DNA of 64,000 bases from Escherichia coli O157:H7 (GTDB lineage Bacteria > Pseudomonadota > Gammaproteobacteria > Enterobacterales > Enterobacteriaceae): the NCBI RefSeq assembly GCF_013167455.1, contig NZ_CP038328.1. One strand, 5' to 3'. Shown in pieces: positions 5,140 to 21,536 of the stretch (position 1 is the first letter of the stretch; each line of letters opens with the position of its first letter). A program made the translations under genes and the position numbers. The notes under the pieces are model-generated. The model was not told where the DNA came from. It saw only the letters and a program-made list of their open reading frames with translations, and did not search any database.

Positions 5140-6825
5140 TTGAAGAAGGTTTGGCTTAACCGTTATCCCGCGGACGTTCCGACGGAGATCAACCCTGACC
5201 GTTATCAATCTCTGGTAGATATGTTTGAGCAGTCGGTCGCGCGCTACGCCGATCAGCCTGCGTTTGTGAATATGGGGGAGGTGATGACCTTCCGCAAGCT
5301 GGAAGAACGCAGTCGCGCGTTTGCCGCTTATTTGCAACAAGGGTTGGGGCTGAAGAAAGGCGATCGCGTTGCGTTGATGATGCCTAATTTATTGCAATAT
5401 CCGGTGGCGCTGTTTGGCATTTTGCGTGCCGGGATGATCGTCGTAAACGTTAACCCGTTGTATACCCCGCGTGAGCTTGAGCATCAGCTTAACGATAGCG
5501 GCGCATCGGCGATTGTCATTGTGTCCAACTTTGCTCACACGCTGGAAAAAGTGGTCGATAAAACCGCAGTTCAGCACGTTATCCTGACCCGTATGGGCGA
5601 TCAGCTTTCCACAGCGAAAGGCACACTGGTTAACTTCGTTGTTAAATACATCAAACGTCTGGTGCCGAAATATCATCTGCCAGATGCCATTTCATTTCGT
5701 AGCGCCCTGCACAACGGCTACCGTATGCAGTATGTCAAACCTGAACTGGTGCCAGAAGATTTAGCCTTCCTGCAATACACTGGCGGCACCACAGGTGTGG
5801 CGAAAGGCGCGATGCTGACTCACCGCAATATGCTGGCGAACCTGGAACAAGTTAACGCTACGTATGGGCCTCTGCTGCATCCGGGCAAAGAGCTGGTGGT
5901 GACGGCGCTGCCGCTGTATCACATTTTTGCACTGACCATTAACTGCCTGCTGTTTATCGAACTGGGTGGGCAGAACCTGCTTATCACTAACCCGCGGGAT
6001 ATTCCGGGGCTGGTCAAAGAGCTGGCGAAATATCCGTTTACCGCTATCACCGGCGTAAACACCTTGTTCAACGCGTTGCTGAACAATAAAGAGTTTCAAC
6101 AACTGGATTTCTCCAGTCTGCACCTTTCTGCAGGCGGTGGGATGCCTGTTCAGCAAGTGGTGGCAGAACGCTGGGTGAAACTGACCGGACAGTATCTGCT
6201 GGAAGGTTATGGCCTGACCGAATGTGCGCCGCTGGTCAGCGTGAACCCCTATGATATTGATTATCATAGCGGTAGCATTGGTTTGCCGGTGCCGTCGACG
6301 GAAGCCAAACTGGTGGATGACGACGATAATGAAGTATCGCCAGGTCAGCCAGGTGAACTTTGCGTCAGAGGTCCACAGGTGATGCTGGGCTATTGGCAGC
6401 GTCCGGATGCTACCGATGAAATCATCAAAAACGGCTGGTTACACACTGGCGACATCGCGGTAATGGATGAAGAAGGATTCCTGCGCATTGTCGATCGTAA
6501 AAAAGACATGATTTTGGTTTCCGGTTTTAACGTCTATCCCAACGAGATTGAAGATGTCGTCATGCAGCATCCTGGCGTACAGGAAGTCGCGGCTGTTGGT
6601 GTACCTTCCGGCTCCAGTGGTGAAGCGGTGAAAATCTTCGTAGTGAAAAAAGATCCATCGCTTACCGAAGAGTCACTGGTGACCTTTTGCCGCCGTCAGC
6701 TCACGGGCTACAAAGTACCGAAGCTGGTGGAGTTTCGTGATGAGTTACCGAAATCTAACGTCGGAAAAATTTTGCGACGAGAATTACGTGACGAAGCGCG
6801 CGGCAAAGTGGACAATAAAGCCTGA
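5140..6825 (+). CDS. fadD: Long-chain-fatty-acid--CoA ligase FadD
   Basis: 561 codons from a TTG start ([14 protein letters not shown]...); AMP-binding motifs ([17 protein letters not shown]); ORF track extends to upstream ATG at 5074. Confidence 0.9.
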
Positions 6826-6843
6826 GCGTTAAGTCAGTCGTCA

Positions 6844-6870
6844 GACGCCGGTTAATCCGGCGTTTTTTTT
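6844..6870 (+). terminator. Intrinsic terminator after fadD
   Basis: acgccgg-ttaat-ccggcgt hairpin followed by T8 run; lies where the sRNA SroD is mapped in K-12 as I recall (not annotated here). Confidence 0.6.
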
Positions 6871-15854: not shown

Positions 15855-16103
15855 ATGGGCATTCTGTCATGGATTATTTTTGGGCTTATTGCCGGTATTC
15901 TGGCGAAGTGGATCATGCCAGGTAAAGATGGTGGTGGATTCTTTATGACTATCCTGCTGGGGATAGTCGGTGCCGTAGTCGGCGGTTGGATCAGCACGCT
16001 GTTTGGCTTTGGTAAAGTCGATGGCTTCAATTTTGGCAGCTTCGTGGTTGCCGTTATTGGTGCGATTGTCGTGCTATTTATCTACAGGAAGATTAAAAGT
16101 TAA
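15855..16103 (+). CDS. yeaQ: GlsB/YeaQ/YmgE-family small membrane protein
   Basis: 82-aa ORF with two glycine-rich TM helices. Confidence 0.75.
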   Translation: MGILSWIIFGLIAGILAKWIMPGKDGGGFFMTILLGIVGAVVGGWISTLFGFGKVDGFNFGSFVVAVIGAIVVLFIYRKIKS

Positions 16104-16117
16104 CGCGTAAATTGCAC

Positions 16118-16151
16118 AAAGGCTGCACACAGGCAGCCTTTGCTATTTTTT
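16118..16151. terminator. Intrinsic terminator after yeaQ (shared with convergent yoaJ)
   Basis: aaaggctgc-acacag-gcagccttt hairpin followed by T6. Confidence 0.55.
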
Positions 16152-16161
16152 AGATGTGACG

Positions 16162-16236
16162 TTACCACCATCCCAGCTCAGTGCCGAGTACGACAATAAT
16201 CGCCACACCCATCATAATGATCGTTGTTTTTTTCAT
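16162..16236 (-). CDS. yoaJ: Small membrane protein YoaJ (24 aa)
   Basis: Hand translation MKKTTIIMMGVAIIVVLGTELGWW; absent from the ORF track (below 60 aa). Confidence 0.6.
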   Translation of the reverse strand: MKKTTIIMMGVAIIVVLGTELGWW

Positions 16237-16238
16237 CT

Positions 16239-16337
16239 TTATGCTCCCGGGGCAGCATAGCCGCCAATAAAAAACCATGCTAAAAATACGACCGCTGTAA
16301 TGAAGATTACAACCGGAAAAATAATACCGATTCGCAT
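16239..16337 (-). CDS. yoaK: Small membrane protein YoaK (32 aa)
   Basis: Hand translation MRIGIIFPVVIFITAVVFLAWFFIGGYAAPGA; its stop abuts the yoaJ start. Confidence 0.6.
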   Translation of the reverse strand: MRIGIIFPVVIFITAVVFLAWFFIGGYAAPGA

Positions 16338-16546
16338 GTTATCACCAATCAAAAGGATGTGAATACGCCTCAGGAATGTGGCGCTGAATGCGCGACAAAA
16401 GGTGTTTTCTGTTTGTGTTTTTTCTCCTGATACATCGCGATATCGGCAGCATGTAGGGCACTGTCTGCATCGGTCGTTTCAGGATCGACTTCTACTATGC
16501 CAAGACTGGCACCAGGATAATACAAATCAACATCACCTAAGTGATA

Positions 16547-17524
16547 TTATCCGCGTATTTGCTGCTGAATGCGTTCTCGCAGCGACGAAATATCCGCATT
16601 CTCGTTGTTTAGTGAAACAACCAAAAACTCATCACCGCCGAGACGACCAATAACTTCGCCATTTTGCTGGAGCGTATTAAGGCGCTCGCCAACCTGAATG
16701 AGAAACAGATCGCCACTATTATGACCAAAACGATCATTGATTAATTTGAAGTTATCCAGATCGATAAACGCGATCATTATCTTTTGGTTAAGATGCCGGG
16801 CGAGGGAAAACAGCGTCGTCAGATTTTCAAAAATCGCCCGCCGATTCGGTAGCCCGGTTAACGAGTCGGTATACGATTGCGCAATCAGCGCAGCATTGGC
16901 TTCGCGCAGCTGTTCAACCAGTGCCTCTTTTTGAATATATTGTGCAATCAGTCCGGCGAATAACTGTAAAACCTGTTCCGCGCGTTCACTCCACTGGCGC
17001 TTCTCACTGCTGGCGGCGCAAAGCGTGCCATAGAATGATCCATCCGGTAAGTGAATTGGCGTGCTCAGAAATGTGGTGATGCCAAGATTGCGTGCCGCAA
17101 TACAGTCGCCCCAACGGTCAGGGACTTCATCGCTGAAAAAGCAGTTTTCATCAATGGCGCGTTTGCATAACGAGTAATCCCACGAGACGGTAAAATTCTC
17201 CGGGATGTGCATTTTCTGGCTGTTACGGGCAAACATAATATGCTGCAGGCGCGCTTCGACATCCACTTTGGTCAGGTAGGTTGATTCCATATCAGTGACC
17301 ATTTCCAGCATCTCCAGAAGCTGTCGGACCAGACTTTCCAGTGACTGTTCTTTGGCAAGGGATTGCGAGATGCGGGCGATAATCTGATCTGACACGAAAC
17401 AACTCCAGGATACGGCGGGTAAATGCTGATTATTTAATCTTTGCAGGCATGATAAAACATCATCAACAAAGATGAAACAAGACGTAATATGTTTTGAGTG
17501 AATGTAATAAAAATAGTGCTGCAA
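16547..17524 (-). CDS. dgcP: Diguanylate cyclase DgcP (YeaP), GAF-GGDEF
   Basis: 325-aa ORF from a TTG start; intact GGDEF active site (RLGGDEFLV); true start uncertain. Confidence 0.8.
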   Translation of the reverse strand: MQHYFYYIHSKHITSCFIFVDDVLSCLQRLNNQHLPAVSWSCFVSDQIIARISQSLAKEQSLESLVRQLLEMLEMVTDMESTYLTKVDVEARLQHIMFARNSQKMHIPENFTVSWDYSLCKRAIDENCFFSDEVPDRWGDCIAARNLGITTFLSTPIHLPDGSFYGTLCAASSEKRQWSERAEQVLQLFAGLIAQYIQKEALVEQLREANAALIAQSYTDSLTGLPNRRAIFENLTTLFSLARHLNQKIMIAFIDLDNFKLINDRFGHNSGDLFLIQVGERLNTLQQNGEVIGRLGGDEFLVVSLNNENADISSLRERIQQQIRG

Positions 17525-20758: not shown

Positions 20759-20927
20759 CGTGGTTTCCTTGCCAAAAAATAATAAGCCTGCTTACTTTAC
20801 GCTTGCTGCAGGAAGGAAGTAGAAAATCTTTACGTTTTTTGCATAAAAAATCAGGCGAACTGTCATCAAACTGCCATTTGTGCACGCTAACAATAACGTG
20901 AAAACAGCTATCTCCCGGGGGTATGCT

Positions 20928-21032
20928 ATGAACGATCAAATGTTCGTCGAGACACTGATTATCACGTCATCGTTTTTTGCCATTGCTGTTGTGCTGGTTT
21001 TGTCCGTTCTGCTTATTGAACGGACAGGCTAG
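20928..21032 (+). CDS. yoaI: Small membrane protein YoaI (34 aa)
   Basis: Hand translation [34 protein letters not shown]; absent from the ORF track. Confidence 0.6.
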
Positions 21033-21536
21033 TTACGCAGTGCGGCGGAAATTGACCAGTTCTGGTTGCGCAATGCGCAAATAATCCGCGGTTTTCAAAA
21101 TAACGGATTTATCCAGCATCCCTGCATTGAAGGCGATTTCATCAAATCGTTCGAAGAGTAGAGGGTCGGCAACCAGTTTGAGTTTTGGATGGAAGCTGAA
21201 AGGGGGGATCGCGCCGAAGACACAGCCTGTGAGTTCATCGACTTCCGCCGGGCTGGCCAACGAAGCGCGTAATCCGCCTATATGGCTGGCGAGTTGGCTC
21301 AGATCGGCCTGTTGATCGGCTGCGAGGATCGCCAGAACATGTTGATTTACGCCATTGCCTTTGACTTTACATACCAGTGCCTTAGCACCCTGCCCTAGAG
21401 CGGTGCCACGAATTTCTGACACCGCTTCACATTTACCTACCGCTTCATGGGTAACGACGCGGAAATCAGCACCTTCTTGTGATAATAAAGCGATTAACCG
21501 CTGATGCGTCACGCTTCCTTTAGCCATTTCAGTCAT
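21033..21536 (-). CDS. yeaK: YbaK/ProX-like aminoacyl-tRNA deacylase YeaK
   Basis: 167-aa ORF. Confidence 0.75.
   Translation of the reverse strand: MTEMAKGSVTHQRLIALLSQEGADFRVVTHEAVGKCEAVSEIRGTALGQGAKALVCKVKGNGVNQHVLAILAADQQADLSQLASHIGGLRASLASPAEVDELTGCVFGAIPPFSFHPKLKLVADPLLFERFDEIAFNAGMLDKSVILKTADYLRIAQPELVNFRRTA

What the first reader, a model, noticed from the sequence alone, without database searches (positions are those of the whole stretch)
16162..16337. Two tiny membrane-protein genes (yoaJ, yoaK) in stop/start contact, invisible to the ORF track
Hand translation of the minus strand gives a 32-aa (yoaK) and a 24-aa (yoaJ) hydrophobic peptide, with the yoaK stop (TAA) followed 2 nt later by the yoaJ ATG. 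yoaI (34 aa, 20928..21032) is a third example. Such genes are systematically missed when ORFs are called at 60 aa or more.
Basis: partly seen in the sequence, partly recalled or inferred. Interest (0 to 1): 0.25.

Follow-up and report, generated by a model that had tools for sequence, protein, structure and literature searches.

The report
Known tiny membrane-protein genes yoaK, yoaJ
The two tiny back-to-back genes are real, but they are the already catalogued E. coli small membrane proteins YoaK and YoaJ (with YoaI nearby), so the finding is correct and ordinary.

Summary
On the minus strand, 16337..16239 encodes the 32-aa YoaK and 16236..16162 the 24-aa YoaJ. They are joined as GCA-TAA-ag-ATG. 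yoaI (34 aa) lies at 20928..21032. The window is E. coli O157:H7 (100% identical to EDL933), and RefSeq already annotates all three genes. Each passes its curated NCBIfam equivalog model.

Published work has already detected chromosomally tagged YoaK. It has also shown that YoaJ is an integral N-in/C-out membrane protein and that RseP can cleave both. YoaI is a PhoB-induced activator of EnvZ-OmpR.

My comparison of 80 Enterobacteriaceae loci adds some detail:
- Both frames are under purifying selection (pN/pS 0.17 and 0.28, against 1.1-2.7 in the shifted frames).
- The stop-to-start distance stays within -4 to +3 nt in all 62 intact pairs, across five junction designs.
- A rare purine-ending Gly codon at the end of yoaK tracks the presence of yoaJ, which points to an embedded ribosome-binding site and translational coupling. 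This is inferred, not shown.

By-products:
- yoaJ is present but uncalled in Salmonella enterica, because it scores below the curated model's cut-off.
- The upstream dgcP carries a nonsense mutation specific to an O157:H7 sub-lineage.

The biochemical function of YoaK and YoaJ remains unknown.

The parts
16239..16337 (-). yoaK coding sequence: 32 aa plus TAA stop at 16241..16239; single hydrophobic span (residues ~5-23)
   Evidence: Translation; RefSeq CDS WP_001219350.1; NCBIfam NF033821, 69.1 bits; intact in 79/80 loci; pN/pS 0.17
16162..16236 (-). yoaJ coding sequence: 24 aa plus TAA stop at 16164..16162. In 48 unique sequences M1, K3, T5, A12, G18, G22 and W24 are invariant and W23 is present in 47 of 48
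   Evidence: Translation; RefSeq CDS WP_001386836.1; NCBIfam NF011343, 60.4 bits; a 24-aa ORF follows yoaK in 62 intact pairs; pN/pS 0.28; residue conservation
16234..16247 (-). Stop/start junction GGAG-CA-TAA-AG-ATG: an SD-like GGAG (16247..16244) inside the last yoaK codons, the yoaK stop, a 2-nt spacer, then the yoaJ start
   Evidence: Sequence. Contact of -4..+3 nt is kept in 62/62 pairs. The Gly31 codon is GGR in 55/61 loci with yoaJ, 1/16 yoaK-only loci and 27/186 other Gly codons
16341..16346 (-). SD-like GGTGAT, 3 nt upstream of the yoaK ATG
   Evidence: Sequence; AGGTGAT/GGTGAT-type motifs are the commonest upstream element of yoaK across the loci
16227..16233 (-). A7 homopolymer directly after the yoaJ ATG (ATG AAA AAA ACA); with the G-run in the yoaK end it is a site of apparent frameshifts in public assemblies
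   Evidence: Sequence; C. sedlakii L014 has A6 and a truncated yoaJ; C. amalonaticus L019 has an extra G and yoaK reads through; fused or mis-called proteins P0001, P0002, P0004, P0016, P0024
16117..16142 (.). GC-rich hairpin between the convergent yoaJ and yeaQ: a good intrinsic terminator for yeaQ (T-run on the + strand) and a probable bidirectional terminator for yoaJ (weaker U-tract, A-tract upstream)
   Evidence: Terminator scan; RNA fold with an 11-bp stem, -24.2 kcal/mol, z -2.1; a similar hairpin follows yoaJ in Salmonella
16370..17395 (-). dgcP (yeaP, GAF-GGDEF diguanylate cyclase), 32 nt upstream on the same strand; probable first gene of a dgcP-yoaK-yoaJ transcript. Here it is a pseudogene through GAA>TAA at 16549..16547 (codon 283)
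   Evidence: RefSeq 'internal stop'; allele comparison; operon call from RNA-seq in K-12 (PMC4620388); dgcP directly upstream in 56 of 64 loci with yoaJ
   Evidence: Translation; RefSeq WP_000999630.1; NCBIfam NF041475, 79.8 bits; function described in PMC11429745
20860..20877 (+). Pho-box-like direct repeat CTGTCAT-caaa-CTGCCAT upstream of yoaI
   Evidence: Sequence; the Pho-box consensus CTGTCAT-N4-CTGTCAT is from my own knowledge; it agrees with the published PhoR-PhoB induction of yoaI (PMC11429745)

Best explanation
These are the known E. coli genes yoaK and yoaJ. They encode two single-pass inner-membrane peptides of 32 and 24 aa. They sit at the 3' end of the dgcP transcription unit and are closed by a hairpin shared with the convergent yeaQ.

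Shown here or in the literature: both frames are real, conserved, protein-coding genes. YoaJ is an integral N-in/C-out membrane protein. YoaK is made at low but detectable levels. Both can be cleaved by the intramembrane protease RseP in vitro.

Inferred from the anatomy and the comparison: yoaK is translated from its own GGTGAT ribosome-binding site. Ribosomes finishing at its TAA are then captured or re-used at the yoaJ ATG 2 nt downstream, helped by the GGAG embedded in the last yoaK codons. This is translational coupling, and it would produce the two peptides together from one mRNA.

More speculative: the peptides act together in the membrane as a small accessory or regulatory pair for a larger envelope protein under stress (YoaJ is diamide-induced). 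The conserved parts are the membrane span and the short periplasmic ends (GGYAxPG in YoaK, GxxxGWW in YoaJ), not the 2-5-residue cytoplasmic ends. The biochemical function is not known. yoaI is a separate, better-understood small membrane protein: PhoB-induced, and an activator of EnvZ-OmpR.
For: Identity:
- 100% DNA identity to O157:H7 genomes with yoaK, yoaJ and yoaI annotated.
- Present in 5,418 of 5,426 complete E. coli genomes.
- The YoaK and YoaJ proteins are identical in all seven other E. coli records I opened.
- NCBIfam equivalog hits are above the cut-offs.

Coding:
- All four within-E. coli SNPs in the two genes are synonymous.
- Across 75 and 61 unique DNA alleles, pN/pS is 0.17 and 0.28 in frame against 1.1-2.7 out of frame. 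Variation is concentrated at third codon positions.

Coupling:
- In 62/62 intact pairs the stop-to-start distance is 0 (30 loci), +2 (20), +3 (2), -1 (2) or -4 (8) nt. The junction was rebuilt several times but never opened.
- 13 of 62 yoaJ genes start with GTG.
- The Gly31 codon of yoaK is the rare GGR in 55/61 loci with yoaJ, in 1/16 yoaK-only loci and in 27/186 other Gly codons of the same genes.

Transcript:
- The gap from dgcP to yoaK is 32 nt, with no convincing promoter in it.
- A dgcP(yeaP)-yoaK-yoaJ operon was called from RNA-seq (PMC4620388).
- dgcP is directly upstream in 56/64 loci.
- A terminator hairpin follows yoaJ.

Protein facts:
- YoaJ is type II and integral to the membrane (PMC4597795).
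- YoaJ is diamide-induced (PMC12542507).
- YoaK is detected by chromosomal tag (10.1101/511675).
- RseP cleaves both in vitro (PMC10470546).
Against: Coupling has not been tested experimentally. E. coli yoaJ has a well-spaced GGAG of its own, so independent initiation could suffice. The local mRNA fold around the yoaJ start is no more stable than shuffled sequence (z -0.26), so there is no sign of a structure that would make yoaJ depend on yoaK translation. The codon and junction statistics come from related genomes and are not phylogenetically independent.

No evidence shows that the two peptides interact. 16 loci (Kosakonia, Pluralibacter and relatives) have yoaK with no yoaJ within 2.5 kb, so YoaK can work alone. 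No solved structure contains either peptide. The in vivo RseP results are inconsistent between tags.
Confidence: 0.85

Rival explanations
1. The two genes are merely neighbours. yoaJ is initiated independently at its own Shine-Dalgarno sequence, the tight spacing reflects genome compaction, and the two peptides have unrelated roles.
For: GGAG lies 7 nt upstream of the yoaJ ATG in E. coli. There is no significant RNA structure masking the start. yoaK occurs without yoaJ in 16 loci. The RseP assays behave differently for the two peptides.
Against: The spacing never exceeds +3 nt in 62 pairs, although the junction sequence was remodelled at least five ways. GTG starts occur in 13 pairs. Salmonella enterica has lost the purine-rich Gly codon (GGC) but keeps the TAA-ca-ATG contact and an intact yoaJ. 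No yoaJ was seen away from yoaK in any locus.
Confidence: 0.3
2. YoaK and YoaJ are accessory factors of the upstream diguanylate cyclase DgcP, for example tethering or tuning it at the membrane, which would explain the conserved dgcP-yoaK-yoaJ order.
For: dgcP lies directly upstream on the same strand, 35-80 nt away, in 56 of 64 loci with yoaJ spanning Escherichia, Enterobacter, Citrobacter, Klebsiella/Raoultella and Kluyvera. An operon was called from RNA-seq.
Against: The pair is retained intact where dgcP is absent (Salmonella, the C. amalonaticus group, two Enterobacter loci). The cytoplasmic ends of the peptides are only 2-5 residues, which leaves little surface for a soluble GAF-GGDEF protein. 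All genomes compared are Enterobacteriaceae, so the synteny may simply be inherited.
Confidence: 0.1
3. They are type I toxin-like hydrophobic peptides (Hok/Ibs/Ldr/TisB style) kept in check by an antisense RNA.
For: They are small and very hydrophobic, and they were grouped with Hok peptides as RseP substrates.
Against: No Rfam family matches at the locus; the only match in the window is sroD at 6784. The locus is single-copy (median 1 place per genome) and vertically inherited in fixed synteny. There is no long structured leader, and the pair lies at the 3' end of an ordinary operon. None of the papers I read reports toxicity for YoaK or YoaJ.
Confidence: 0.03
4. The frames are chance ORFs and the region is an untranslated 3' UTR of dgcP.
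For: None beyond their small size.
Against: Frame-specific purifying selection; ORF length and start preserved in 79/80 and 62 loci; tagged proteins detected and topology mapped.
Confidence: 0.01

Closest known systems
YoaK family small membrane protein (NCBIfam NF033821; listed as Pfam PF28021 in precomputed hits)
   Same: Full-length match 1-32 of 32 at 69.1 bits. The protein is the same accession (WP_001219350.1) as in a K-12-like laboratory strain, a B strain (C41(DE3)) and the other E. coli records opened.
   Different: Nothing; it is the family's type member.
Protein YoaJ (NCBIfam NF011343 / PRK14760; UniProt YOAJ_ECOLI)
   Same: Full-length match 1-24 of 24 at 60.4 bits. The protein is the same accession (WP_001386836.1) in all E. 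coli records opened.
   Different: Nothing for this copy. The family is wider than its model: orthologues from Salmonella, Raoultella, Kluyvera and some Enterobacter score 37-53 bits, below the 54-bit cut-off.
Small membrane protein YoaI (NCBIfam NF041475)
   Same: Full-length match at 79.8 bits, with a Pho-box-like repeat upstream, as expected for the PhoB-induced EnvZ activator described in PMC11429745.
   Different: Unrelated in sequence and location to yoaK and yoaJ. It is a stand-alone gene, convergent with yeaK.
Small accessory subunits encoded at the end of operons and made with their partners (CydX of cydABX, KdpF of kdpFABC, AcrZ, MgtS)
   Same: Single-pass peptides of 20-50 aa, encoded in tight contact with a neighbouring gene and conserved mainly in the membrane span.
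   Different: For those peptides the large partner is known. For YoaK and YoaJ no partner is known. The upstream gene encodes a soluble enzyme, and the tight contact is between two small peptides rather than between a peptide and its complex.
Translationally coupled gene pairs with overlapping or abutting stop and start codons (ATGA, TAATG, TAAATG)
   Same: All these junction types occur at yoaK/yoaJ in different genera, with an SD-like element inside the upstream ORF.
   Different: Dependence of yoaJ translation on yoaK translation has not been measured.

Membership tests
YoaK family small membrane protein (NF033821) | Score at or above the curated cut-off (32 bits) over the full 32-position model | tested here: met
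   69.1 bits, residues 1-32 to model 1-32
YoaK family small membrane protein (NF033821) | About 32 aa with one hydrophobic span and the conserved P8, A15, W21-F22 and G25-G26-Y27-A28-x-P30 | tested here: met
   Alignment A1 invariant and near-invariant columns; best 19-residue hydropathy window 2.79
Protein YoaJ (NF011343) | Score at or above the curated cut-off (54 bits) over the 24-position model | tested here: met
   60.4 bits, residues 1-24 to model 1-24
Protein YoaJ (NF011343) | Integral membrane protein with N-in/C-out topology | not testable with these tools
   Taken from the literature: PMC4597795 reports alkali-resistant membrane association and cites experimental confirmation of the topology. 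The sequence agrees (MKK at the N-terminus, GWW at the C-terminus).
Small membrane protein YoaI (NF041475) | Score at or above the curated cut-off (45 bits) | tested here: met
   79.8 bits, full length
Translationally coupled gene pair | Same strand, with stop and start overlapping or within a few nucleotides, conserved across taxa | tested here: met
   2 nt here; -4 to +3 nt in 62/62 intact pairs
Translationally coupled gene pair | Ribosome-binding element for the downstream gene lies inside the upstream ORF | tested here: met
   GGAG at 16247..16244; a GGRG-type motif in 56/62 pairs against 1/16 yoaK-only loci; Gly31 codon bias
Translationally coupled gene pair | Downstream translation depends on upstream translation | not testable with these tools
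   This needs reporter fusions with yoaK start or stop mutants. The RNA fold gives no support for a masking structure.
Type I toxin-antitoxin peptide | Cognate antisense or overlapping sRNA, often multi-copy, toxic on overexpression | tested here: not met
   No Rfam family at the locus; single copy per genome. Toxicity cannot be tested here.
Leader peptide / regulatory upstream ORF | A regulated structural gene downstream on the same strand | tested here: not met
   yoaJ is followed by a terminator hairpin and the convergent yeaQ

The most novel reading that the evidence does not exclude
yoaK-yoaJ is an obligately coupled two-peptide module found across much of the Enterobacteriaceae. In this reading yoaJ translation depends on termination at yoaK, and the two type II peptides form a heteromer that modulates an unidentified envelope protein under thiol or envelope stress. 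The yoaJ half has gone uncalled in Salmonella enterica, and is absent from or rarely and namelessly called in public protein sets for Raoultella, Kluyvera and some Enterobacter, because the curated model's cut-off is set too high. In the O157:H7 sub-lineage of this window, the dgcP nonsense mutation 209 nt upstream may lower expression of the pair through polarity.
Probability: 0.25. Interest if true: 0.35.

Novelty: already known. Interest (0 to 1): 0.1.

Why it matters
As a discovery it does not matter, because these genes are annotated and have been studied as proteins. As a control it is useful: a reader working from raw sequence found three real sub-40-aa genes that a 60-aa ORF filter hides.

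The comparative by-products have modest practical value:
- The evidence for translational coupling of two small membrane peptides suggests they should be studied, deleted and tagged as a pair.
- The YoaJ annotation model misses clear orthologues in Salmonella and other genera.
- The homopolymer runs at the junction generate spurious fused proteins in public databases.

Tried and rejected
I used the representative-library search for YoaK instead and a genome scan with a family alignment.
- The primary papers are not in the held library: Hemm 2008, Hemm 2010, Fontaine 2011 and the EcoSal small-proteome review. Their results are cited only through papers that quote them.
- No supplementary tables of the two ribosome-profiling papers are held. 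I could not confirm initiation peaks at these two starts.
- Pfam in the local copy gave no hit, although precomputed hits list PF28021:YoaK.
- Promoter scans were uninformative. The only minus-strand match near yoaK overlaps its own start codon, and match counts were at or below the shuffle expectation.
- RNA folding of the junction was not significant. A longer fold was mildly significant (z -2.7), but I did not pursue it because single-sequence long-range pairs are unreliable.
- No PDB chain matches any of the three peptides.
- I found no paper linking dgcP/yeaP to an O157 stop codon.
- I did not model a YoaK-linker-YoaJ fusion with AlphaFold. The tool returns no inter-helix contacts or PAE, and a linker fusion biases towards an antiparallel hairpin, which conflicts with two N-in/C-out peptides.
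- Type I toxin, leader-peptide and chance-ORF readings were considered and rejected (see rival explanations and membership tests).

Full report
**1. The observation**

Reading the minus strand of 16000..16600 and translating the stated intervals gives two peptides. A 32-aa peptide, MRIGIIFPVVIFITAVVFLAWFFIGGYAAPGA, comes from 16337..16239. A 24-aa peptide, MKKTTIIMMGVAIIVVLGTELGWW, comes from 16236..16162. The junction is GCA-TAA-AG-ATG, so two nucleotides separate the stop from the start. The third example, 20928..21032 (+), gives the 34-aa [34 protein letters not shown].

The mechanical ORFs are 37 and 38 aa because of upstream in-frame TTG and ATG codons.

**2. More than chance**

I compared the three peptides with the 296 ORFs of 20-40 aa in the window, each taken from the first ATG after a stop. 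Only 1, 2 and 3 of these reach the hydropathy of YoaI, YoaK and YoaJ respectively. yoaK-yoaJ is the only pair of hydrophobic small ORFs within -4..+4 nt of each other on either strand. The other hydrophobic small ORFs are nested alternative starts of these genes, three that fall inside larger coding sequences (yeaL, nimT, dgcP) and two I did not examine.

**3. What it is**

The window is E. coli O157:H7. The 901-nt stretch is 100% identical to EDL933 and many other O157:H7 chromosomes. RefSeq annotates this gene order in EDL933: dgcP (pseudogene, internal stop), yoaK, yoaJ, then the convergent yeaQ. yoaI lies between yeaK and yeaL.

The locus is present in 5,418 of 5,426 complete E. coli genomes. 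The YoaK and YoaJ proteins carry the same accessions in all seven other E. coli records I opened.

Each peptide passes its curated NCBIfam equivalog model:

| Peptide | Score (bits) | Cut-off (bits) |
|---|---|---|
| YoaK | 69.1 | 32 |
| YoaJ | 60.4 | 54 |
| YoaI | 79.8 | 45 |

**4. What is already known from experiments**

This section rests on papers, not on my own tests.
- YoaJ is a small membrane protein of unknown function. It has type II (N-in/C-out) orientation, reported as experimentally confirmed, and is integrally membrane-associated. It binds RseP (PMC4597795).
- YoaJ is reported to be induced by diamide (PMC12542507, quoting Hemm 2010).
- YoaK is detectable as a chromosomally tagged protein and is among the weaker of the originally identified small proteins (bioRxiv 10.1101/511675).
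- Purified RseP cleaves both peptides in vitro. The in vivo results depend on the tag used (PMC10470546).
- A yeaP(dgcP)-yoaK-yoaJ operon was called from K-12 RNA-seq (PMC4620388).
- YoaI is induced by PhoR-PhoB, accumulates under low Mg2+, and activates EnvZ-OmpR (PMC11429745).

**5. Independent evidence that both frames code**

A search of 1.84 billion representative proteins with YoaK found 25 relatives. I trimmed and aligned them (A1) and used the alignment to fetch 80 genomic loci. These come from Escherichia, Enterobacter, Lelliottia, Citrobacter, Salmonella, Leclercia, Klebsiella/Raoultella, Kluyvera, Kosakonia, Pluralibacter and others.
- yoaK is an ATG-started ORF of 31-34 aa in 79 of the 80 loci.
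- A 24-aa ORF with the pattern M-[RK]-K-[TS]-T...G...GWW follows it in 62 intact pairs. Two further loci have a homopolymer frameshift in one partner.
- pN/pS over all pairs of unique alleles is 0.17 (yoaK) and 0.28 (yoaJ) in the annotated frames. In the two shifted frames it is 1.7 and 2.7 for yoaK, and 1.1 and 1.8 for yoaJ. Variation is concentrated at third codon positions.
- Within E. coli, the four SNPs in the two genes are all synonymous.
- The 38-aa extended yoaJ ORF is not the real gene. In 30 loci yoaJ is in the same frame as yoaK and starts directly after its stop (TAAATG), which rules out the extension.

**6. How it most likely works**

The step from identity to mechanism is inference.

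*The junction.* Its sequence differs between genera, yet the distance from the yoaK stop to the yoaJ start is always tiny:

| Distance (nt) | Loci | Junction type |
|---|---|---|
| 0 | 30 | TAAATG and similar |
| +2 | 20 | includes E. coli |
| +3 | 2 | |
| -1 | 2 | TAATG / TGATG |
| -4 | 8 | ATGA / GTGA |

Thirteen of the 62 yoaJ genes start with GTG.

*The embedded ribosome-binding site.* The conserved Gly31 of YoaK lies 5-9 nt before the yoaJ start. Its codon is the rare purine-ending GGA or GGG in 55 of 61 loci that have yoaJ. The same codon type occurs in only 1 of 16 loci that lack yoaJ, and in 27 of 186 codons for the other conserved glycines in the same genes. That is a synonymous-site signature of a GGRG ribosome-binding element embedded in yoaK for the benefit of yoaJ. 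In this window it is GGAG at 16247..16244.

Together these features are what translational coupling looks like. The counts come from related genomes, so the Fisher P values overstate independence. The effect sizes are nevertheless large.

*Against an obligatory dependence.* The junction RNA folds no better than shuffled sequence, and the E. coli SD is good enough for independent initiation.

*The transcript.* Only 32 nt separate dgcP from yoaK, and no credible promoter lies there. dgcP is directly upstream in 56 of 64 loci with yoaJ. An 11-bp GC-rich hairpin at 16117..16142 ends the transcript and serves as the terminator of the convergent yeaQ.

*The proteins.* The conserved residues lie in the membrane span and at the short periplasmic ends. 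For YoaK these are P8, A15, W21-F22 and G25-G26-Y27-A28-x-P30. For YoaJ they are A12, G18 and G22-W23-W24. The cytoplasmic ends are only 2-5 residues. I therefore favour a role inside the membrane or at its periplasmic face, probably as a pair. Their function is unknown, and no solved structure contains them.

**7. Limits on the 'pair' and 'DgcP' ideas**

Sixteen loci (Kosakonia, Pluralibacter and relatives) have yoaK alone, in a different neighbourhood, with no yoaJ within 2.5 kb. YoaK can therefore function without YoaJ.

Salmonella, the Citrobacter amalonaticus group and two Enterobacter loci keep yoaK-yoaJ although dgcP is absent. The pair does not need DgcP.

**8. By-products**

(a) *yoaJ is under-annotated.* Orthologues score below the model's 54-bit cut-off in several genera:

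| Source of YoaJ orthologue | Score (bits) |
|---|---|
| Enterobacter asburiae type | 49.4 |
| Raoultella | 50.2 |
| Kluyvera | 46.0 |
| S. enterica subsp. arizonae | 36.9 |
| S. enterica | 42.6 |

Annotation status tracks this cut-off. The E. coli, C. freundii and E. hormaechei (56.4 bits) sequences are named on at least 1,000 contigs each. The E. asburiae and Kluyvera types occur only as 5 and 2 unnamed calls. The arizonae and Raoultella types are absent from a 15-billion-protein collection. In three NCBI Salmonella enterica assemblies yoaK is called, but the intact yoaJ in the 138-nt gap before yeaQ is not. That gene reads TAA-ca-ATG and encodes MRKTTMMLMGIALIAVLGTELGWW.

(b) *The upstream dgcP is inactivated.* A G>T change at window 16549 converts GAA to TAA at codon 283. 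The exact 61-mer with the stop is found in 138 of 5,426 genomes, while about 350 share the O157-type yoaKJ region. Another O157:H7 strain (2-6-2) has GAA and an intact dgcP. It is therefore a sub-lineage marker. It leaves 209 nt of untranslated RNA ahead of yoaK, which might cause polarity. I did not test this.

(c) *Homopolymers cause artefacts.* The G-run and the A7 run at the junction coincide with frameshifted or fused calls in public data.

**9. Verdict**

The feature is already known and annotated, so interest is low. The coupling evidence and the annotation gap are small refinements rather than discoveries.

Noticed in passing
window 16547..16549 (- strand), within dgcP 16370..17395: dgcP (diguanylate cyclase) carries a GAA>TAA nonsense codon at position 283 of 341. 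The exact allele is in 138 of 5,426 complete E. coli genomes, which makes it a sub-lineage of O157:H7. O157:H7 strain 2-6-2 and five other E. coli have GAA. It leaves 209 nt untranslated ahead of yoaK, so polarity on yoaK-yoaJ is possible but untested.
   Followed up: yes
L088 1602..1676 (Salmonella enterica, NCBI assembly GCA_033669885.1); also L032, L040, L062-L066, L083-L086: An intact 24-aa yoaJ orthologue follows yoaK in Salmonella, Raoultella/Klebsiella and Kluyvera. It is not called in the Salmonella assemblies inspected, and some variants are absent from a 15-billion-protein collection. These sequences score 37-53 bits against NCBIfam NF011343, whose cut-off is 54.
   Followed up: yes
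window 21030..21035: The yoaI stop codon (TAG, 21030..21032, + strand) directly abuts the yeaK stop codon (TTA on +, i.e. TAA on -, 21033..21035). The two convergent genes have zero intergenic bases, so their transcripts must run into each other's coding sequence.
   Followed up: partly
window 20860..20877: A near-perfect Pho-box-like direct repeat (CTGTCAT-caaa-CTGCCAT) lies about 50 nt upstream of the yoaI start. This is consistent with the published PhoB control of yoaI.
   Followed up: partly
window 16227..16233 and 16245..16251; L014, L019; proteins P0001, P0002, P0004, P0016, P0024: The homopolymer runs at the junction (C4G3 in E. coli, G5 elsewhere in the yoaK end, and A7 after the yoaJ ATG) coincide with frameshifted assemblies and with spurious read-through or YoaK-YoaJ fusion proteins in public protein sets. 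One example is the 57-aa P0002.
   Followed up: partly
L067-L082 (Kosakonia, Pluralibacter and relatives), e.g. L069 2501..2596: A clade has yoaK alone in a different neighbourhood. In L069 it lies upstream of a 310-aa multi-pass membrane protein, with no dgcP, yeaQ or yoaJ nearby. The Gly31 codon there is GGC or GGT rather than GGR.
   Followed up: partly
window 6784..6869 (+): This is the only Rfam match in the whole window at gathering threshold: the sroD sRNA (115 bits).
   Followed up: no
L003 2093..2921 and L004 2094..2921 (E. coli O178:H19 2012C-4431; isolate F437); L006 2503..2921: In some E. coli strains the yoaG-yeaR genes beyond yeaQ are replaced or interrupted by mobile elements: an InsQ/TnpB-family gene in two strains and IS421 in C41(DE3). 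yoaK, yoaJ and yeaQ are untouched.
   Followed up: no
window 16609..16737 (-): A 42-aa hydrophobic ATG ORF lies out of frame inside dgcP. It has no SD-like sequence upstream. I did not check its conservation and presume it is a chance ORF.
   Followed up: no
The local Pfam copy gives no hit for YoaK, yet precomputed annotations list PF28021:YoaK for the same protein. The local Pfam library seems to lack this recent family.
   Followed up: no
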